From Callorhinchus milii (Eukaryota): 64,000 nt of DNA. The translations under genes were made by a program, and so were the position numbers. Below are positions 20,486 to 50,569 of this stretch, piece by piece. Below the pieces are notes generated by a model. It was not told the origin of the DNA and searched no databases. It saw nothing but the letters and a program-made list of their open reading frames with translations. Each line of letters opens with the position of its first letter. The stretch's first letter is position 1. The stretch spans positions 186,001 to 250,000 of the forward strand of contig NW_024704755.1 of the NCBI RefSeq assembly GCF_018977255.1, given 5' to 3'.

Positions 20486-21534
20486 ATGAAATCCCTGGGG
20501 CTGAAGGTAGGAATGAAACCCAAAGAACAACAGCGGCTCAAAGGCTAAACTTCAGAGAACTTTTAAACCAACAACAGCTTTGTATCCAGTCCGGCGGCTC
20601 TGTCTCTCAGCTTCTGATGTGTGTCTCTGTGTCTCTCCCACCAGCTCCTGTTCCTGACCCTCGCCCTGGCGGCGGCGATGTGTGCCGGGAGGAGGGAGAA
20701 GCGGGTCAGAGAGGATCGGTGCTGGGGCCCCGGGCAGCCGACGGAGAGAGCGCTGCGGCTGTCGGGCCGGACCGGCGCTTGGGTCCGTTTCCCTTCGGTT
20801 TACTTGGTGGAGAAGTTGGAAACTCGCGGCGGCCACAGGCGCCACCACTCAGCCCAGGACTGCCCCAAACTACTGCAACCGGGCAGCTCGGACCCCAGTC
20901 ACCGCTCCATCTCTCCCTGGACATACAGGTAGGTGTCCAACAGCACAGACTGGGGTCAGGGACTCGCTCACAGCACAGCCCGAGAGGCCATACATTGGGC
21001 TCGGGGTCGGGGTGACATCCAGCGCTAATCCTTCACATAAAACCGAGCCTTCCTGGTGGGAAGCCGCTCCCGGGCGCTTCACGGCTTTAACTGTAAACTT
21101 CAGTGACTGGGTTTGTCGATCAGTGAGTGCGCGTCACTGTCCCACATACAGACATTGAGACACAGATACACACAGTGTAGAGCCCAACTCCTGCCCAGAA
21201 GTCACTGGTGGGTGTCAGAGCTCCGTCACTGCCGAGTGCTGCGGGACGTGTTGTTGACTTGTGCGGCTGTGATTGTAGGATTGACTACGACGAGAACAGA
21301 TTCCCGGAGAAGTTGGCGTTTGCCGAATGTCTGTGTAAAGGCTGCATCAACACCGCGTCGGGACTCGAGGAGCATCACCTGAACTCGGTGCTTCTGGAGC
21401 AAACCATGATGGTCCTGCGGCGCCGGCCTTGCCCCCACGACCCCCACCTGTACAGCTTTCAGATGCATTACATCCGAGTGCCGGTGGGCTGTACCTGTGT
21501 ACTGCCTCGCAAGCACACACTTCCCTCGGCGTGA
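20486..21534 (+). CDS. IL17C: Interleukin-17C
   Basis: Exons 20486-20506 (MKSLGLK), 20645-20928 (signal peptide LLFLTLALAAAMCA to RSISPWTYR) and 21279-21534 (IDYDENRFPEKLAFAECLCKGC..LNSV..VLRR..VPVGCTCV). IL-17 cystine-knot motifs; adjacency to ZC3H18 as in human supports the C subtype. Confidence 0.93.
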
Positions 21535-39852: not shown

Positions 39853-42800
39853 TCACCAGGTGCCGGTTGTCAGCAGCACCCTGGCCGCCGCTCGGCGTTC
39901 CTGGCATCGGGAGCGTCTGACGTGCAAAGGTAACTGGCTGCAGAATGGGAAATATTCGTAATCGCTGGGGTCCGAGTGGGACGATTCCTCGCTGGAGGCT
40001 GAGGTCTGGTTGCTGGAGCCGAGCACTGAGCTGCTGTCTGCCTGGCTAGATAGCACTTCCATTGCCTTGGGAGCAGCGCTGTGTGAGGCTCTACTTGCCT
40101 GCCTCACACCACTGGCATCAGTCAGGCCCAGGGTCAGTCTAGCCACCACAACCTTTGGCTGGAAAGTGGGAGAATTCAACAGCTGCTTCTGAACCTGAGG
40201 AGAGAGCGGGGCACCGAGCAGAGAGGCCAGATCCCAGTCGTGCCCCCCGGACACCCCCCGCCCCTGGTGTACCGGCGACCCATCCAATACCCCATCCACA
40301 ATCCACAGAGCCGGAGGCTGGCTGTGCCGGGTGTTGCAGACAGGCAGGGCAGAGTGTGGACCTGCAGGTGATTCACTCCTGGATTCAGTGTCCACAGTTC
40401 GGTGACACGAAGCCTGAGAGAGGAACGGATCTGGAGGTGACAGGATCGCCAGGACTGAGGTTTCCTCCGGAGAATAGTCAAAATGAAGAGCAGAAAAGGC
40501 AGGATGGTTTCCTGTGGTGGCTGCGCTCGCCAGGCAGTCACTGTGGACACTGACCGACGTTTGCCACTGTGTCCCGGTGTCGCCGGCCGGTGCCTGTTCC
40601 TCCCCACGAGTCAAACCCATCTCAACGTAGGTATGAGCACCAGAAACTGTCTGGACTGCGGCGTGGCTCCTGGTGTCCCTGTTGCTCCAGGATCCAGCTA
40701 CAAAAGTCACATTTAAATACTCTGTGCACAATCTACACCATTGAGCTCAACCAGGATATAACCACCCCGGGGTCATCTGTAGTCCTGGGTTAGAGACACA
40801 GTAAAGCTCCCTCTACACTGTGTGTCCACACTCCCAGGTCAGGGTTACAGACACAGTAAAGCTCCCCCTCCACTGTGTGTCCACACTCCCAGGTCAGGGT
40901 TACAGACACAGTAAAACTCCCTCTACACTGTGCGTCTGTCCACACTCCCAGGTCAGGGTTAGAGACACAGTAAAGCTCCCTCTACACTGTGTGTCCACAC
41001 TCCCAGGTCAGAGTTAGAAACACAGTAAAGCTCCTCTACACTGTGTGTCCACACTCCTAGGTCAGGGTTACAGACACAGTAAAGCTCCCCCTCCACTGTG
41101 TGTCCACACTCCCAGGTCAGGGTTACAGACACAGTAAAACTCCCTCTACACTGTGCGTCCGTCCACACTCCCAGGTCAGGGTTAGATACACAGTAAAGCT
41201 CCCTCTACTGTCAAACAATGTGATTTTAACATGGGGGGAGGCAATAGTAGAAGTTTTTGCACTCACTGCTCAGGTCTTGTTGGTGCTGATTCCGGATCCT
41301 CTCAATCAGGGCCAGGAGGATATGGGGAATGTCGGAGTGATGATTCAGGATGGACACAAGGGCTTGTTCCTCTGGTGGCAGCCGGGCCACATCCACTGTG
41401 CAGGCCAGCAGCTGTTAACATCAGCACATCAGTCATAGTGGTGGGGGGGTGGGGGGCGAGAGCAAATGCTGGGAGGGGAGGGAAGGGCAGGGGGAATGCC
41501 AGAGTCTGGACTGAGCGAGTGCCAGGTTTGGATGTGTGAGTGAGTGCTGGGCGGGGTGGGGGAGTGCCGTAGGGGGTAAGTTTTACCTGATCTATCCTGG
41601 GTTGTGGCAACGCTCTCTCCAGTCTCTCCAGATATTCCCACAGCAGTTTCTGAGCTGCTGCCGTGAACGGTGCCCCGTACTCCTCCATCTCATCCTGTGG
41701 CAATAGCAACACTTCATTTACACCTAGAGTGAGAGCTCTCTAATCCCATTCCTTGCTCTCTCTCTACCCATCGTGTCTGTGTTTGTGCTTGCTCCCCCAC
41801 TGGAGCTCTCTACTCTAATCCCATTCCTTGCTTTCTCTCTCCGCATCATGTCTGTGCTGGTGCTCACTCCCCCGTTGGAGCTCTCTACTCTAATCCCATT
41901 CCTCGCTCGCTCTCTCTCCCCATCGTGTCTGTGCTGGTGCTTGCTCCCCCACTGGAGCTCTCTAACCCATTGCCCTGAGGGTACACTCTGTACAGGGGCA
42001 ATGATGGCTGTGCCACCCTCTCCTGCCTCAGGCTCACCTCCAGAAACTGCTTGCGATATTGGTCATCCCGGATCAGCAACAAAACCAATTTACGAAACTG
42101 CTCGTGGCACTGCCGGACTTTGTGCCGATCTCGCCTTGACTGTCAAAAAGCAAAGCAGACGTGGACAGTCAGAGTGAGACTGATGACAGGCTGAAGTGAC
42201 ACACACTTTACCTCACACTGGGAGGACTCAAAGCGCTTCACACTGTTTACTGAGAAGTCCACTGACTATATATATTGAAGATGAGGCGCGGCAGCCAACT
42301 TGCACTCACCAACATTCCACCAACAGCCATGGAGTGACTGACCAATTTTATTGTGTGATTGTTGGCCAGGACACCAGGAGAGAGAAACCTTTCTCTTTTT
42401 GAATTGAGACGTGGGATCTTTAATATCTTTAACAGCTGAATGGGCAGACCAGGGCCTCCGTCAGTCTGACGTCTGATCCAAAGACGGCCTTTCCAGCACC
42501 TCCAAAGCACTGCACTGAACTGTCAGCCTGAACTGTGTGAGCTCAACGTCCTAATGTAGAGGATTGTTACCGATCGCCTTCTGTCTCAGGGGAATGTATA
42601 CATTAAGGGAAATAAAGATATGACAAATTTTAGAGATTTGGGGAGAGGGGAGACCAGGTCACAACCAGACCAGTGGCTTGTATGCGGAGACTAGACTAAC
42701 GCTCAGGTGGGTGGGTGATGATCCCCCAGCCATGCAGTGACGACAAATCTTAAGCTAACACATAGTGGATCTGCCACTTCCCATTCACAACAATTGAACA

Positions 42801-45800
42801 TTTACACCAGTGTCAGCTACGTACCGCTTTCCGGTCGTTGGGAAGCTTCTTTGGGAAGTGGTTGTCTAGTGACTGAAGGATGTCCAGCAGACAGTGTCTC
42901 CGCACAAACATCTCCAGCAGCAACTGTATGGAATGGAAGCCGTGAGATTCCCTCTGATCTGACAGCAGTCAGCACTGGCCCAACAACAATTATATTACAG
43001 CAACTTGCACTTATATAGAGCCCTCCACCCAGCGTAGTGTCTCAGAGCGCTTATTTTTATAGCGCCTTTCATGTCAGGAGGACGTCCCAAGGCCCAGTGC
43101 CAAAGGGGTAAACTTTGCTGCCGAGGGCACCGTGCTTTATAATAATAATCCTTGCATTTGATGTAGCACCTTATCACTTCTTCGAGACGTCACAAAGCGC
43201 TTCACAGGATATAATGTAAAGTGAATTGATGGTGGATTTTGTGGGAGAAACAAAACAGCCAATTGCGCACAGAGGTATCGCACAAACAGTTGTGGATTAA
43301 GCTTTGTGTTAAAAGAACCTTAAATGGAAACGAGTGTGATAGAAGCTGTACCTTTGCTCTGAAAGCGAGGCAGACCTTGACGTGGTGACGATAACCGATC
43401 AGATATGGGACCTGCCGCCGCACTGTCTCCACAAAGTCCAGCACCCTGTGCGAATGGTCTGCCGATTGGTGGGTCACACTGCTCCACAATGCTGTGCTGC
43501 CCAGGCGAAGGGGCAACACCCCGTCCTGAGGGAGCTGAGCCCCGAATCCCACCAGGCAAACTACAAGATGCGTCCAAAAGCGTCATTGCATGTCCCAAGC
43601 GTTAGTCACCCTCACAAACTGTGCAGACGCACGTACCACTAAATAAATAGCTTGTGCTGCGCATCACTATCACAATCTCTCCAGGTGGATGAGCCAGGGC
43701 ATTGGTTATGACGGCACCGGCCAGCCTGGCTCATGGCAGCACTTGTAAGGGCAGACCAGTCACTGGGGCAGGGAATCCTCCCACTCAGCTCCTGTTAACC
43801 CTCCAAGCCAAAGCCCTAAAGGGTAGAGCGGTCCTAGCTGGACAAGCAACAATAAAATTACATTTGTAAAGCGCCTTTCATATCTGGAGGATGTCCCAAT
43901 GCACTGAGCAGTTAGGGAGCAGGACCCAAGCATGGGGGGAGGTGGGGGGGCAAGGTTGGGATGAGGGAGGGCAGAAGGGGTAGGAGGGTGGCTGAAGGCC
44001 CTCCTCAAAAAGGAGGGTCTTGAGTCGTTCCTTGAATGAGGCAAGAGAGGGAGCAAGGTGAAGGTATTGTGGGATTGAGTTCCGAAGAGTGGGGGTAGAG
44101 AGGCTGAAAGGCTGATGTGGGAGAGGACACAAGCTGTAGCTCAATGGTTAGAGCACTCGCTTTGCAAGTGAGAGACCTGAGTTCAATCCCGGCAGAGGGC
44201 GAAACCTTGGGCAAGTTTCCTTACTCCACACAGAGCCTAATAATAATCCTCCAAACCCAAAAACAATAATAAATTGGTCATTTTCAATCTACGACTGTTT
44301 GTGGGACATTGCTGTGCGCAATTGGCTGCCGCGTTCGCCCACAAATATACAGTCAATTCACTTTACAGTGTGTTCTGTGAAGCGCTTTGGGACGTCCTCC
44401 CGACGTGAAAAGCGCTATATCAAATGCAAGGATTATTAAACTGCAGAGTTCTGGATAATCTGCAGATTGTGGAGGGAATAGTTGTGGAGGCCGACAAGGA
44501 GGGAGTTTCCGTAATCGAGCCTTGAGGTGACGAATGCGTGTATCAAGGTTTTGGCGGTCTGAGGGGTGAGACAGTGGTGGAGTCGAGCAATGTTGCAGGG
44601 GAGGGGGGAGATGGCAGAGTGGGTCATGGCATGGATATGGGGGAGAAAGAACAGTTGACAAGACTCCTAGCTAAGCGGGAAAGCTTGCCAGAGAGTAATA
44701 TCCATGGCAAGCTAAGTGGTTTAAGCTAGTTAGACTCCAACAGTTGCACATTCTCAGGTACAGAGTTACCTGGCGACAGGTGACCAACGTACCTGCTCTG
44801 ACATCATTGAACACAGATTACATTTGTAAAGGAGGAAGGAAGGGAAACCCTGACTTTTGCAGTGACTGACCAACTGAACTTTTTTTCTTCCCCTTTTCTC
44901 TTCACCTTCTCTCTTCCTCTCTGTTTCAGAAAATGTGTCGGTGCATTTTGTTTTAATGCGATGCGAACAGTATTTTTTCTCTTTGTTTCTTTCTTTTCTT
45001 AAAGAAATCTGAACTCTTTTGCTGTGCCTTTTGTTGCAAAGGCGAATGGCAGCGTTGAGGTCAATGTCTGTAGACCATTTTCTGGCTCTGTGTATGTGTT
45101 GGTGGGGGGGGGGCGGGGAGGGGGTGGTGTTGAGTTGTGTTTGTGCATGAAAAAGAGGATTTTTTAAGATTTTTAATTTCCCTTCCCCCACCCTTGGGTC
45201 TTTCCTCATCCCCCTCCTTGCAAACTGTGTCATTTTCAGTGTTGCTAAGAGTTCATAAGAAAAAAATATCCTGGGTTTTCAGATTCAGGCTTTCGTTTAC
45301 ATATGTAAACATTGCTGTTTATAATAATAATCCTTGCTTTTGATATAGCGCTTTTCACGTCTTCTCGACATCTCAAAGTGCTTCACAGAATATACTGTAA
45401 AGTGAATTGACTGTATATTTGGGGGCGAAACGCGGCAGCCAATTGAACACAACAGCATTGCACAAACAGTCGTGCATTGAAGTGATCAATTTATTATTGT
45501 TTTTTTTCTTGAGGGATTATTATCAGACGTGTGGAGTCAGGAAACTTGCCCAAGGTTTCGCCCCGGCCGAGAATCAAACCCAAGCCTCTCGCTTGCGAGG
45601 CGAGTGCTCTAACCACTGAGCTACAGGACTCCACTGTTTCACTGATACAGGCTCTCCCCCCCCCCCACCATACACTGATACAGGCTCTCCCCCCACCACA
45701 CACTGATACAGGCTCTCCCCCCCCCCCCACCACACACTGACACAGGCTCTCCCCCCCCCCCCCACCACACACTGACACAGGCTCTCCCCCCCCACACACA

Positions 45801-46417
45801 CACACTGACACAGGCTCTCCCCCCCCCCACCACACACTGACACAGGCTCTCCCCCCCCCCCCCCCACCATACACTGACACAGGCTCCCCCCCCCCACCAC
45901 ACACTGACACAGGCTCTCCCCCCCACACACTGACACAGGCTCCCCACACACACACACTGACACAGGCTCCCCACCCCCCCCCCACACACACACACTGACA
46001 CAGGCTCTCCCCCCCCCCCACCACACACTGACACAGGCTCTCCCCCCCCCCCCACCACACACTGACACAGGCTCCCCCCCCCCCCCACCACACACTGACA
46101 CAGGCTCTCCCCCCCCCCACACACACACACTGACACAGGCTCTCCCCCCCCCCCCACCATACACTGACACAGGCTCTCCCCCCCCCACCACACACTGACA
46201 CAGGCTCCCCCCACACCACACACTGACACAGGCTCTCCCCCCCACCACACACTGACACAGGCTCTCCCCCCCCCCACACTAGTGGTCACACGCTGTCCCC
46301 GCAGCACTGACCTCTCACAGCCTCCTCCAGGCGATGTCGGCCGCAGTAATCCAGAATCCAGCTTTTCAACTCTGGGATTTTCAGACATTCGCTAACAGCG
46401 AACTCCGGGAATTCCAT
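39853..46417 (-). CDS. TINF2 (TIN2) N-terminal-domain protein, TINF2-like, about 537 aa if the predicted first exon is correct
   Basis: Minus-strand exons 46312-46417 (tentative; MEFPEF..EEAVR), 43352-43560 (LRLGSTALWSSV..RVLDFVETVRRQVPYLIGYRHHVKVCLAFRAK), 42825-42923 (LLLEMFV..LQSLDNHFP), 42038-42139 (SRRDRHKVRQCHEQFRKLV), 41587-41694 (EEYGAPFTAAAQKLLWEYLERLERALPQP), 41267-41411 and 39853-40697. Aligns with recalled human TIN2 ([54 protein letters not shown]). All phases are compatible with no internal stops. Confidence 0.88.
40785..41210 (-). repeat. Same 55-bp minisatellite, about 8 copies, opposite orientation
   Basis: Reverse complement of the 38300-38635 unit, in the last intron of the TINF2-like gene. 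Confidence 0.92.
41730..41975. repeat. ~75-bp tandem repeat, about 3 copies
   Basis: GAGCTCTCTACTCTAATCCCATTCCT..CATCGTGTCTGTG..CTCCCCCACTG recurs. Confidence 0.85.
42225..42590 (-). mobile_element. Old SacSINE1-like SINE
   Basis: GGCCAGGACACCAGGAGAGA..GGGATCTTTAA..CCAAAGACGGC..TGTCAGCCT, the reverse of the old SINE body. Confidence 0.6.
43846..44660 (-). mobile_element. L2 3' part with nested SINE
   Basis: LIHAFVTSRLDYGNSLLVGL..LQIIQNSA; TLRNSIP..FKERLKTLLF; tail. Confidence 0.88.
44134..44438 (+). mobile_element. Young DeuSINE nested in L2
   Basis: Same SINE consensus. Confidence 0.92.
44995..45100 (-). mobile_element. Possible hAT transposase C-terminal remnant
   Basis: Minus frame HIHR..DIDLNAAIRLCNKRHSKRVQI resembles the end of hAT dimerisation domains; short, judged by eye only. 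Confidence 0.35.
45321..45632 (-). mobile_element. Full-length DeuSINE variant, minus strand
   Basis: Reverse complement of the SINE head (GCTACAGGACTCC) and tail. Confidence 0.88.
45640..46280 (+). repeat. Minisatellite (CACACTGACACAGGCTCTCn), about 20 copies; left arm of an inverted pair
   Basis: Directly visible. Confidence 0.95.
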
Positions 46418-46467
46418 TCCTTTCACTACACGAGAATAGATCTCTCCCTGTGTCTCACCCTCTCCCT

Positions 46468-47476
46468 GGGTGGGGGGAGCCTGTGTCAGTGTGTGTGGGG
46501 GGGGGGGCCTGTGTCAGTGTGTGTGTGTGTGGGGGGGGGGTGGGGAGCCTGTGTCAGTGTGTGTGTGGGGGGGGATTGTGTCAGTGTGTGTGTGTGTGTG
46601 TGGGGGGGGGGTGGGGAGCCTGTGTCAGTGTGTGTGTGGGGTGGGGGGAGCCTGTGTCAGTGTGTGTGTGGGGGGGGGAGCCTGTGTCAGTGTGTGTGTG
46701 TGGGGGGGTGGGGAGCCTGTGTCAGTGTGTGTGTGGGGGGGGNNNNNNNNNNNNNNNNNNNNNNNNNNNNNNNNNNNNNNNNNNNNNNNNNNNNNNNNNN
46801 NNNNNNNNNNNNNNNNNNNNNNNNNNNNNNNNNNNNNNNNNNNNNNNNNNNNNNNNNNNNNNNNNNNNNNNNNNNNNNNNNNNNNNNNTGTGGGGGGGGG
46901 GGGAGCCTGTGTCAGTGTGTGTGGGGGGGGGGGTGGGGAGCCTGTGTCAGTGTGTGTGTGGGGGGGGGGTGGGGAGCCTGTGTCAGTGTGTGTGTGTGTG
47001 TGGGGGGGGGGGTGGGGAGCCTGTGTCAGTGTGTGTGTGTGGNNNNNNNNNNNNNNNNNNNNNNNNNNNNNNNNNNNNNNNNNNNNNNNNNNNNNNNNNN
47101 NNNNNNNNNNNNNNNNNNNNNNNNNNNNNNNNNNNNNNNNNNNNNNNNNNNNNNNNNNNNNNNNNNNNNNNNNNNNNNNNNNNNNNNNNNNNNNNNNNNN
47201 NNNNNNNNNNNNNNNNNNNNNNNNNNNNNNNNNNNNNNNNNNNNNNNNNNNNNNNNNNNNNNNNNNNNNNNNNNNNNNNNNNNNNNNNNNNNNNNNNNNN
47301 NNNNNNNNNNNNNNNNNNNNNNNNNNNNNNNNNNNNTGTGTGGGGGGTGGGGGAGCCTGTGTCAGTGTGTGTGTGGGGTGGGGAGCCTGTGTCAGTGTGT
47401 GTGTGGGGGGGGGGGGGAGCCTGTGTCAGTGTGTGCGTGTGTGTGTGGGGGGGGGGGGGGGGGGGAGTCAGTCAGA
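46468..47476 (-). repeat. Same minisatellite inverted (GnAGCCTGTGTCAGTGTG); right arm, contains two N gaps
   Basis: Directly visible; gaps at 46743-46888 and 47043-47336. Confidence 0.9.
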
Positions 47477-47520
47477 CAAGTCGCTACATGTTCTGAGCCT
47501 ATTACAGGGCAATGTCGAGC

Positions 47521-47650
47521 AGCCAATCAGATGGCAGTGTGGCTAACCAATCAGAAATCCAGACTCGCGCAGCCAATCAGCGGTCAGGTGTGACCCGACT
47601 GTCCAATCAGAGCGTGTGCCCAGAGCGAGGCTTCACCAACATGGCGGCCG
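47521..47650. promoter_or_regulatory. CCAAT-box cluster with YY1-like motif; probable bidirectional promoter for FAAP24 and the TINF2-like gene
   Basis: Four CCAATCAG copies near 47523, 47547, 47573 and 47603; AACATGGCGGC at 47638-47648. Confidence 0.75.
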
Positions 47651-47857
47651 GGGCTCAGCGAAGCCTTTGTCAATGCAACAGTTACTGACAATTGTCTGAG
47701 TCTCTGCAGCCAATCACTGGCGCCCACTGCCCCACTGGCGCCCACTGCCGCCCACTGCCCCACTGGCGCCCACTGCCCCACTGGTGCCCACTGCCCCACT
47801 GGGAAGGCTGTGGCCTCCCTTCCGGTCAAGCTTTCCTTTCCCTGAGCACAGAGCACA

Positions 47858-50569
47858 ATGGACCTCACATGTAGCCTCTCCCACACACCTGTCCGCCCCG
47901 GGGCCTCCTCTGTCCCTTCCGGCCACATCATTGTGAATGAGAGGTGGATGGGCTCGGAGCTGGTGTCGGGGTTGCAGGGTAAGTGTGGGTACCGTTGGGA
48001 CACAGCGGCTTGTTCGACCTGACCATTTCTGCTCTGTGGAGACGCTGATTCCTGCTGGGGTGCAGTTCCATGAATATTTCTACTAACCCCCTGTTAACTC
48101 TGCAGTCAAAGCTCTCACGGGGAGGGTGGTCCAAGCCGGACAAGCAGTGAGATAGCTTGTCAGACAACAGTATCAATGACAAGCTATGTGGTTTACTTAC
48201 CTGCCCGTACCCTCTGTTCCTCTGGCTCCGGTCTGCTCTCTGCTCTCAGCCCCGAGGCTCTGGAACTCTATCCCCAGTGCCTTCGCCGCTTCCTCCCTTT
48301 CCTCCTTCAGGGCCGGTCTCAAAACCTTTCTCTTTGACCTTCAGCCTTCAGCTCCCCTCTCACCCTCTCAACTCTCTACCCCCTCCTCGCTCCCTCCCTT
48401 CCCTCACCCTAGCCATTTCCTCCCTGCTCAGGTCCTGACCCAACTGTCCAGCGCCTTGGGACGTCCTCCCGACGGAAAGGCGTTCTATAAATGAAATCTT
48501 GTTGTTGTTTTAGCTGGTTAAACTCTAGCAGTTACCCCAACACACTCTCTGGGGTCCCCAAGCCTTGGCTCTTACCAACCTCTGCCTAATACTCTCTGGA
48601 ATTAGATAAGTAGCGTGTGTCCCTCCAGAGAGAGAGCGCATCCACGTTCTATTGCATGTATAAGTGGCATAAATATATAGAACTCGGTCTGGGTTGACAA
48701 CTCTTTAGCACCTTTACGTGTGCCAGACACCTGGCTGATGACGGTGATGGGTTTCTGTGTGTAAGACTAAAGGCAGATTCTGTGGGTGCTCTCCACGTGT
48801 TTGCTTTGACTCATCGGTTCGTACCTGAGATTTTAACCTTTCTGTTGCCCTTTATTTTATTTCAATCCTGAAATGAGTCACTGGTATCGGGGCGAGGCTG
48901 GGGGAGCACTGTGTTGTTTCCTCTTCCAGGGTACCGTATGGCAGGGATAGGTTATCAGCAATTTTAGCCATTGGGCTGAGCAGCGCTGGGATTCACCTGA
49001 GAGTCAGAAGGGCAACTTCATGACCTGCATTGTACAGCAGAGCTTTATCAGCTGATATCACTGCTGTCTGAAGCCAGCTCAGATCTGAGTGACTGGTGCT
49101 TGCCAAGGCTGATGTTGACCTCAGTGGTGCCCAGTTAGGGAGAGGTCCCATGATCACAGTCCAGCCCTGAGTGAATTTACTGTCATGTCGTTGCCAGGTT
49201 GGATTACAACTGTGTTTGAGGATGGCCTGGGATTGGTGGATTTCCACCTCTCGAAGCAGATGTGTGTGTTTTACATCTCGGAGGTGGATCTCGTGGCTGG
49301 AAACAGCTACAAAAGGAAACTGGTCCAATTCCGCAACGTGAGTCCGACCGATGAGACAGTGTGTCAGCGAGCGATTCCAGAGTAAAATGCATTCCCTGTC
49401 AACTAGTGGACTCCTGTTAGCCTCAGTCTGACTGGGCTAGGATAAGCCCCATCATTCCCACTTCTGAACTGCTGTGTTGGCCTATCCCGTACTCCACTTC
49501 ACATGCAGGGCCTGTGCAACCACAACCAAGCATGTAATGAGAGTGGGGGGAGGGGGGTTCTTTTCCCCTTCAGAGACAATCAGAGCTGTTCGGTGGCTGG
49601 GAGTCGCTCTGCGCTGCGAGCTGCTGTTTTGTGTTGCTGGGTTGGGGGGTCTGCTCCTGATCTGTGCCCAGTTGCCACTGTGTGGAGAGGGGAACCAGGG
49701 AGAACAGGTGAAATAGGCGGAATAGAGGGGAGGGACGATGTGAGTTGAGAATGACCGATACACTGAGTGAGACTAAACAGGCTGGTTTCTCTTTCTCCCG
49801 TTAGGCGAGCACGCTGCACGGGGCGGTGCTGGTGGAGAGGACAGGCCTGAGCGAGCAGTACTTCGCCGGTGTGCAGAGGTTTGTGGTGCTGGAGCTGGGC
49901 CTGACGCTGCTGCCGGTGGCTGGACAGGCCCAGGCCTCCCAGCTCCTCATCCAAATGGTGAGCGTCCCATGGAGCCCAGCACTGTGTGGGTGGGGGGGAG
50001 GTTGGGTGTGTGGGAGGTGGGTATGTGTGTGTGGGGGGGTGGGTGTATGTGGGGGATGTGGCTATGTGGGGGGGGTGGGTGGGTGCGTGGTGGTGTTGGG
50101 TGGGTGGGTGAGAGGGTGTGTGGGTGGGGGGGTGTGGGAGGGGTTTGGGGGTGTGTGTGTATGTGTGTGGGAGGTTGGTATGTGGGGGGGTGGGTGGGAG
50201 ATGTGGGTAGGTGGGTGGGGGATGTGGGTGGGGAGGTGTGTGTGTGAGAGGGGGTGTGGGTGTTTGGGATGGGATGGGTTCTGTCACACACAGTGAGCCG
50301 CTCTCTGCCTGTTTCAGGTGCAGGAGGTCAGTAAGGAGCCCGGACACAACCCATTCCTGAGGCGGAGCTGCTCCCGGCCGGCAGAGCCAGCGCTGCTCAT
50401 CTCCGTCCAGCAAATCCCAGGAGTCGGCAAAGTCAAGGCAGCCACACTGCTGCAGCACTTCCCCAGCCTCCAGCAGCTTAGCCAGGCCTCCACCAGTGAG
50501 CTACAACCCCGGGTGGGACGGCTCATTTCTCAGCAAGTCACCAGCTTCTTCTGCCAGGACTGGCCCTGA
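47858..50569 (+). CDS. FAAP24: Fanconi anemia core complex-associated protein 24
   Basis: Exons 47858-47978, 49198-49337, 49805-49957, 50318-50569. VPSGHIIVNERW.GSEL, FEDGLGLVDFHLS, DLVAGNSYKRKLV, SEQYF..VQRFVVLELGLTLLPV and the HhH motif VQQIPGVGKVKA..LLQHFPSLQQLS match recalled FAAP24. Confidence 0.96.
48195..48510 (+). mobile_element. L2 3' fragment
   Basis: SAPRLWNSIP..FRAGLKTFLF plus tail. Confidence 0.85.
49985..50270. repeat. G/T low-complexity tract in the last FAAP24 intron
   Basis: Directly visible. Confidence 0.85.

What the first reader, a model, noticed from the sequence alone, without database searches (positions are those of the whole stretch)
39853..46417. Intact TIN2-like gene lacking the TRF1-binding motif: candidate unrecognised shelterin paralogue
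Seen: an uninterrupted spliced ORF with a clear TIN2 N-terminal (TRFH-like) domain, including 102-bp and 108-bp phase-0 exons as I recall for human TINF2. The C-terminal exon has no F/YxLxP motif, but has FQPKVVVARL (degenerate PxVxL, HP1-ligand-like), an acidic SEESSHSDPSDYEY patch and a basic tail. Established: TIN2-N bridges TPP1 and TRF2, FxLxP binds TRF1, and human TINF2 lies on 14q12 among different neighbours. Inference: either a second TIN2-family protein (alternative shelterin, competitor, or non-telomeric adaptor) or a relocated, divergent orthologue.
Basis: partly seen in the sequence, partly recalled or inferred. Interest (0 to 1): 0.75.

Follow-up and report, generated by a model that had tools for sequence, protein, structure and literature searches.

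The report
Second TIN2 telomere gene in vertebrates
This chimaera gene is an intact, spliced second copy of the telomere scaffold gene TIN2, distinct from the standard copy found elsewhere in the same genome, with likely counterparts in sharks, skates, sturgeons, bowfin and frogs; it likely works as an alternative telomere or heterochromatin adaptor that mammals appear to have lost.

Summary
The gene is real: seven GT-AG coding exons, 537 aa, joined in RNA-like contigs, identical to the RefSeq model named TINF2 in Callorhinchus milii. It is not the syntenic TINF2. A second TINF2_N gene on contig C758 (RefSeq 'uncharacterized LOC103173837') lies among GMP-reductase, TSSK-like and CIDE-N genes as human TINF2 does, has the TIN2L tail motifs and falls in the canonical clade (98/96). 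The window gene belongs to a second type (shark, skate, bowfin, sturgeon, frog, bonefish rows) with an N-terminal extension shared with a hemichordate TIN2, a private SPPDP motif and a conserved QPxVxLxRL (HP1-box-like) block. Its neighbours fit a genome-duplication origin. Caveats: AU tests did not reject younger duplications (p 0.09-0.10); binding and localisation are untested. Five literature searches showed no description; the scan had not noted it before. Verdict: new variant of a known kind, interest 0.6.

The parts
46312..46480 (-). First coding exon (ATG at 46417); encodes the ~35-aa N-terminal extension. An AG acceptor precedes 46480, so a further 5' exon probably exists; it was not located
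   Evidence: extension profile hits
43352..43560 (-). Coding exon 2 (209 nt), start of the TRFH-like TINF2_N domain
   Evidence: PF14973 31.1 bits; 5XYF E 4.4e-8; spliced
42825..42923 (-). Coding exon 3 (99 nt, phase 0), TINF2_N
   Evidence: joined to exon 2 in run X3
42038..42139 (-). Coding exon 4 (102 nt, phase 0), TINF2_N
   Evidence: RefSeq model; not listed as its own piece in the cut table, but contig X2-7 holds 202 unlisted bases where exons 3+4 (201 nt) belong
41587..41694 (-). Coding exon 5 (108 nt, phase 0), end of TINF2_N
   Evidence: PF14973 37.0 bits; spliced in X1, X2
41267..41411 (-). Coding exon 6 (145 nt), helical segment after the Pfam domain, conserved in sharks
39853..40697 (-). 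Last coding exon (845 nt), low-conservation linker with three conserved blocks, stop at 39853-39855; a contig runs on unspliced to at least 39400
40411..40503 (-). Residues 322-352, FSALHFD...SPPDP block; marks the second TIN2 type
   Evidence: 14 of 22 second-type rows, 0 of 29 canonical, 0 of 10 outgroup rows; profile hits
40135..40164 (-). Residues 435-444, FQPKVVVARL, HP1-box-like (PxVxL); end of a conserved 36-aa block
   Evidence: 14 invariant columns of 37 in five chondrichthyan rows; 18 of 22 second-type rows
39946..39993 (-). Residues 492-507, acidic SEESS...SDYEYFP tail motif
   Evidence: 9 of 22 second-type rows, 0 of 29 canonical
47500..47620 (.). Likely shared promoter: four CCAAT boxes between this gene and the divergently read FAAP24 gene
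   Evidence: sequence; a contig of X2 starts at 47617; FAAP24 identity from PDB; promoter role inferred

Best explanation
The gene is an intact, spliced TIN2-family paralogue ('TIN2b'), separate from the canonical TINF2 on contig C758, that likely arose before cartilaginous and bony fishes split, probably in a vertebrate genome duplication, and likely acts as an alternative shelterin bridge whose TRFH-like domain would bind TPP1 and TRF2 and whose PxVxL-like box would recruit HP1. Shown: gene, splicing, domain, second gene, motif split between the two copies. In this species TIN2b has the PxVxL-like box and the old N-terminal extension; the canonical copy has the CK2-site tail that strengthens TRF2 binding in human TIN2L. 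Inferred: the two copies divided the functions of one ancestral TIN2, so that these animals could build two forms of shelterin. My odds by step: distinct paralogue 0.92; older than the jawed-vertebrate split 0.85; genome-duplication origin 0.65; works at telomeres through TPP1/TRF2 0.5; HP1 binding 0.6.
For: Second TINF2_N gene at G000:C758:25460-27161, 36% identical over 140 aa, beside GMP-reductase exons, a TSSK-like kinase and a CIDE-N gene; the human order is TSSK4..GMPR2, TINF2..CIDEB (PMC10340279). Its protein P0079 has both TIN2L tail motifs (human D391/D395/S396-DEE in PMC5974431) and sits in a 29-row canonical clade, 98/96, that excludes P0002. Second-type rows are named from five sharks, a skate, bowfin, sturgeons and paddlefish, a frog and a bonefish; they share the SPPDP block (14 of 22) and never the canonical tail (0 of 22). 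Holding the 22 rows as one clade costs 0.13 log-likelihood units, p 0.49. The window lies in an IL17, LDLa-receptor, LAT2/Asc-1-like neighbourhood and human TINF2 lies near IL25, LRP10, SLC7A8, as paired duplicated blocks would. 53-58% identity to sharks over residues 1-255 shows constraint. Invertebrate single-copy TIN2 shares the N-terminal extension (7 of 10 outgroup rows), so the type is not a degenerate offshoot.
Against: AU tests did not reject a chimaera-only duplication (p 0.098) or a chondrichthyan-only one (p 0.09, 20 log-likelihood units); second-type monophyly is unresolved in the free tree, and the seven teleost rows lack the SPPDP block and sit on a long branch. P0079 is itself a long branch (1.25), and the window protein is closer to a mammal-type TIN2 (34%) than P0079 is (28%). 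Positions equivalent to human A15 and A110 are G and C here, but they vary in canonical non-mammalian rows too, so they neither support nor exclude binding; G60 is A in all 7 chondrichthyan second-type rows and G in all 17 canonical rows listed. Kappei et al. found TIN2 and TPP1 absent or not enriched on telomeric DNA in several non-mammalian extracts. The box here is PKVVV, not PxVxL. No binding or localisation data exist. Expression of the C758 gene was not examined beyond its RefSeq model.
Confidence: 0.52

Rival explanations
1. An old paralogue that left the telomere: the TRFH-like domain now binds other partners and the PxVxL-like box places it on HP1 chromatin generally, as a non-telomeric adaptor.
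For: No canonical tail motif in 22 of 22 rows; G60-equivalent changed in chondrichthyans; private conserved blocks of unknown partner; TINF2_N has been reused in zinc-finger proteins in fish.
Against: The TRFH-like domain is complete and as close to mammal-type TIN2 (34%) as a canonical shark row is (37%); the extension it keeps is shared with invertebrate TIN2, which Myler et al. treat as shelterin.
Confidence: 0.27
2. The window gene is the working TIN2 of this lineage (the RefSeq name is right in function) and the C758 copy is a fast-evolving, decaying or specialised duplicate; or both come from a young, cartilaginous-fish-only duplication.
For: P0079 has a long branch and an ER-repeat insertion in its first helix region; AU tests did not reject younger duplications; the window protein scores higher on PF14973 exon for exon (37.0 vs 29.1 bits for the last domain exon).
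Against: The C758 frame is intact with both tail motifs at the same spacing (+27) as shark canonical rows; frogs, bowfin and sturgeons carry the SPPDP block, which a shark-only duplication cannot explain.
Confidence: 0.13
3. A competitor: it binds TPP1 or TRF2 but not both, and so dampens shelterin assembly in some tissues.
For: Lacks the tail that enhances TRF2 binding in human TIN2L (PMC5974431); G60 and A110 equivalents differ.
Against: A110 differs in canonical shark rows as well; human TIN2S also lacks the tail and still works; nothing tested shows one surface lost.
Confidence: 0.08

Closest known systems
Human TIN2 (TINF2), TRFH-like domain, PDB 5XYF; Pfam PF14973
   Same: [quoted passage not shown]
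   Different: Extra 35-aa N-terminal exon; no FxLxP; no CK2-site tail; private SPPDP and acidic tail blocks; different gene neighbourhood
Canonical TINF2 of the same genome (XP_042202358.1, LOC103173837, contig C758)
   Same: TINF2_N, 36% identity over 140 aa; no FxLxP
   Different: 335 aa; has LVSDSEDE and KTKYNTYIPTL; lacks the N-terminal extension, SPPDP block and QPxVxLxRL; sits by GMP-reductase, TSSK-like and CIDE-N genes
Invertebrate single TIN2 (Ptychodera flava XP_070575275.1 and nine unnamed outgroup rows)
   Same: N-terminal extension before the TRFH-like domain (7 of 10 rows)
   Different: 26% identity; none of the C-terminal blocks
Fish TINF2_N-zinc-finger proteins
   Same: TINF2_N domain
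   Different: C2H2 arrays, none here; they nest in the canonical teleost-type clade
TRF1/TRF2 and rodent POT1a/POT1b duplications (Myler 2021)
   Same: A shelterin subunit kept in two diverged copies
   Different: Those are described and tested; a second TIN2 is not mentioned in the passages read

Membership tests
TIN2 family (TINF2_N) | PF14973 above the curated cut-off over the whole model | tested here: met
   110.5 bits vs 29.4, model 1-149
TIN2 family (TINF2_N) | TRFH-like fold as in 5XYF | tested here: inconclusive
   Sequence match E 6.8e-29; both AlphaFold models have mean pLDDT 36; Foldseek top hit 5XYF, E 1.2e-4, rmsd 12
Canonical TINF2 orthologue | Neighbours GMPR2, TSSK4, CIDEB | tested here: not met
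   Those families are on C758 with the other copy; window neighbours are FAAP24, BRO1, G-patch, IL17
Canonical TINF2 orthologue | TIN2L tail: CK2-site motif and KTK..T.IPT motif | tested here: not met
   0 of 22 second-type rows; 14 and 13 of 29 canonical rows
Canonical TINF2 orthologue | Groups with mammalian TIN2 in a tree | tested here: not met
   Outside the 29-row clade, 98/96; AU tests of younger duplications not significant
Mammalian TIN2 | FxLxP TRF1-binding motif | tested here: not met
   None in P0002 or P0079; mammal-only per Myler 2021, so not a test of orthology here
HP1 chromoshadow ligands | PxVxL motif | tested here: inconclusive
   PKVVV here; PKVSL, PKVFL, PKIFL, PQVHL in four sharks; binding untested
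Shelterin subunit | Binds TPP1 and TRF2, localises to telomeres | not testable with these tools
   No TPP1, TRF2 or whole chromoshadow sequence could be obtained as one stretch
TINF2_N-zinc-finger fusions | C2H2 array | tested here: not met
   0 fingers; Pfam shows TINF2_N only

The most novel reading that the evidence does not exclude
Non-amniote jawed vertebrates build two shelterins. The genome duplications that made TRF1 and TRF2 also made TIN2a and TIN2b; TIN2b kept the ancestral N-terminus and the HP1 box, which is the forerunner of the human dyskeratosis-congenita patch, and was lost in amniotes before mammalian TIN2 gained FxLxP. Published comparisons may have mixed the two types.
Probability: 0.22. 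Interest if true: 0.82.

Novelty: new variant of a known kind. Interest (0 to 1): 0.6.

Why it matters
Shelterin is described with one TIN2. A second, conserved TIN2 type in cartilaginous fish, early ray-finned fish and frogs changes how its evolution is read, and it is testable in Xenopus or fish cells. It bears on two open points in the papers read: TRF1 binds TIN2 in Xenopus without FxLxP (Myler 2021), and TIN2 was missing from several non-mammalian telomere pull-downs (Kappei 2017). It also shows a naming error: RefSeq gives the name TINF2 to the paralogue and leaves the syntenic gene uncharacterised.

Tried and rejected
Exon 2 alone found no homologue by word search and nothing useful in the ESM Atlas. 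Two AlphaFold runs on the whole protein were too poor to read. No RNA holder was on record as RNA; the splice joins carry the expression claim. Weak hits of the white-shark protein on C42 and C1004 are low-complexity repeats. The only TPP1 candidate in the genome (E 0.07) showed no recognisable gene. The TRF family search found nothing although TRF1 and TRF2 accessions for this species are published: exon-wise searches miss genes, so a third TIN2 is not excluded. All three chromoshadow genes are split by an intron, so no complex prediction was run. The idea that the QPxVxLxRL block is the homologue of the mammalian PTVML patch was tested: spacing to the tail motif agrees (109 aa in P0050; 90-118 in six canonical rows, 168 in one), but a profile from 48 non-mammalian motifs does not score PTVML (shuffle p 0.44 and 0.95) and the block profile finds nothing in the PDB: unproven. 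A missed FxLxP exon: contigs join exon 6 directly to exon 7, and the [FY]xLxP matches in other minus-strand frames near the gene lie outside the exons. Hu et al. 2017 was not held.

Full report
Observation. The protein is identical to RefSeq XP_042196310.1, named 'TERF1-interacting nuclear factor 2 [Callorhinchus milii]'. PF14973 covers residues 61-208 at 110.5 bits and human TIN2 in 5XYF matches at E 6.8e-29. Contigs from three of four runs laid (two studies, guessed RNA) join exons 1-2, 2-3, 5-6 and 6-7 at the predicted places, and the fourth run reads through introns; exon 4 is not listed on its own in that cut table. The exon 1-2 joint recurs in three of four runs. No [FYH]xLxP occurs in the protein.

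A second gene. PF14973 at E 0.001 finds only this gene (2 matches); at E 10 all 4 candidates appear, two of them on contig C758. C758 (39,072 bases) also carries GMP-reductase exons, a TSSK-like kinase, a CIDE-N gene and an XPG-family gene (the names GMPR2, TSSK4, CIDEB, FEN1 are my recognition, the families are from the calls). A human 14q gene list gives TSSK4, CHMP4A, NEDD8, GMPR2, TINF2, TGM1 ... CIDEB (PMC10340279, one table passage). My exon model of the C758 gene agrees in its core with database protein P0079, RefSeq XP_042202358.1 'uncharacterized LOC103173837' on a contig of the same length. It has LVSDSEDE and KTKYNTYIPTL, the two tail motifs also seen in mammal-type rows; the first fits the CK2 site of human TIN2L (PMC5974431, passages). 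It has no FxLxP. The two proteins are 36% identical over 140 residues. The same kind of search missed TRF1 and TRF2 altogether, so further copies are not excluded.

FxLxP is not the clue. Myler et al. 2021 (PMC8653790; passages, outline, parts 1-2 of 3 of supplement file 2; file 1 and figures not seen) state that the motif is found only in mammals and that Xenopus TRF1 binds TIN2 without it. In my set FNLAP occurs in 3 of 167 proteins, all mammal-like.

Spread. A word search with residues 1-255 gave four shark proteins at 53-58% identity. A full HMMER search with their alignment gave 408 hits at E 0.001, of which 150 were shown. Of 162 sequences, 141 covered at least 80% of the domain; 21 were dropped, and 8 more as isoforms or duplicates, leaving 133 for a quick tree; I chose 62 of these to span its clades for IQ-TREE. 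Rooted on ten invertebrate-type rows (99/96; only one named, Ptychodera), a 29-row clade (98/96) holds P0079, a Heptranchias protein, mammal-type rows and the zinc-finger fusions. P0002 lies outside it in a six-row chondrichthyan clade (100/99). Other outside rows are named as skate, bowfin, sturgeons and paddlefish, the frog Discoglossus and the bonefish Albula. These 22 rows are not resolved as one clade, but holding them together costs almost nothing (p 0.49). Against: AU tests did not reject a chimaera-only (p 0.098) or chondrichthyan-only duplication (p 0.09), and P0079 is a long branch. Features outside the tree columns favour the old split: the SPPDP block is in 14 of 22 second-type rows and 0 of 29 canonical rows; the canonical tail motifs are in 0 of 22 and 13-14 of 29; the N-terminal extension is in 14 of 22, 0 of 29 and 7 of 10 outgroup rows. 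The seven teleost rows lack the SPPDP block and their place is the least sure. Most rows are unnamed, so loss in amniotes is inferred from the absence of a mammal-like or reptile-like row among the second type in the best 150, not shown. Only this species was shown to hold both types.

Neighbourhood. Along C14: cadherin, AMP-binding, Sedlin, IL17, the gene, FAAP24, BRO1, G-patch, WD40, LDLa receptor, LAT2/Asc-1-like transporter. The right side matches the human 19q13.11 run RHPN2, GPATCH1, WDR88, LRP3, SLC7A10 (PMC3847609, one passage); the left side I recall as 16q24 (CDH15, ACSF3, TRAPPC2L, GALNS, ZC3H18, IL17C, KIAA0513). Human TINF2 lies near LRP10, SLC7A8 and IL25, relatives of three window neighbours. 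This is what paired blocks from a genome duplication look like; that these blocks are ohnologous, like those of TERF1 and TERF2, is recalled and my search for a paper on it gave none. White-shark models end in an exon whose match lies 85 kb downstream here, beside AMP-binding exons, so the shark gene has the same neighbour.

Mechanism. Shown: a complete TINF2_N domain under constraint, and a conserved block ending in QPxVxLxRL (14 invariant columns of 37 in five rows). Established: the human domain binds TPP1 and TRF2, A15R and A110R block these (bioRxiv 10.1101/436014, passages; PMC7948428, passages), and TIN2 residues 283-287 bind HP1-gamma (PMC5974431, PMC6791651, passages). The A15 and A110 equivalents are G and C here but vary in canonical non-mammalian rows as well; the G60 equivalent (its role recalled from Hu 2017, not held) is A in 7 of 7 chondrichthyan second-type rows and G in 17 of 17 canonical rows. 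The QPxVxLxRL motif occurs in 18 of 22 second-type and 7 of 29 canonical rows, so it predates the split; none of the five chondrichthyan-type canonical rows has it. In this lineage the HP1-like box and the CK2 tail therefore sit on different genes. I infer a division of labour: TIN2b as an alternative bridge that links shelterin to HP1 chromatin. A non-telomeric adaptor is the main rival. Kappei et al. 2017 (PMC5309834, passages and supplement hits) found TIN2 absent or not enriched in several non-mammalian pull-downs, which leaves the telomeric role open. Structure models were too weak to help.

Novelty. Five searches aimed at a TIN2 duplicate (listings and abstracts) showed no description of a second vertebrate TIN2; the library lacks most subscription papers, and databases already label some members 'TINF2-like'. 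Two look-ups in the scan's notes found nothing on this gene. It works like TIN2 by domain, belongs to the TIN2 family, and fails the tests for the canonical orthologue. Verdict: real, a new variant of a known kind, interest 0.6; the two-shelterin reading has probability about 0.22.

Noticed in passing
PMC8653790 supplement table: The skate TIN2 accession used by Myler et al. (XP_032891486) is numerically next to their skate TRF2, TPP1 and Rap1 accessions, genes I recall on human 16q. It may be the paralogue rather than TINF2. The sequence could not be retrieved.
   Followed up: partly
G000:C758:30610-38512: The GMP-reductase gene has its 5' exons on the plus strand and its last exons on the minus strand, which suggests a local misassembly. 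A further partial GMP-reductase gene lies on C1043 with no TIN2 match.
   Followed up: no
G000:C14:140377-140499 (L027): All three white-shark RefSeq isoforms end by splicing into an ACSF3-like exon; probably a read-through model error, since other sharks end in the acidic tail.
   Followed up: partly
proteins P0019 (bowfin) and P0023: Both second-type proteins have FNLxP (residues 348, 363), close to the mammal-type FNLAP; not aligned in other rows, chance of any such motif about 0.1 each, and the two are related.
   Followed up: partly
window 47500-50569: FAAP24 starts about 1.1 kb from this gene's first known exon and reads away from it; four CCAAT boxes lie between.
   Followed up: partly
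L017:5400-5460 (C758 gene): The canonical copy has a glutamate-arginine repeat insertion in the first helix region of its TRFH-like domain, present in the RefSeq protein too; its effect on TPP1 binding is unknown.
   Followed up: no
protein P0090: A long-branch UniRef protein with the N-terminal extension falls among vertebrate rows; its species was cut from the listing. If jawless, it would help date the duplication.
   Followed up: no
window 20618-21534: An IL-17 family gene (PF06083) that scores higher on IL-17A/F than on IL-25 structures; IL17C by position is recalled, not tested.
   Followed up: partly
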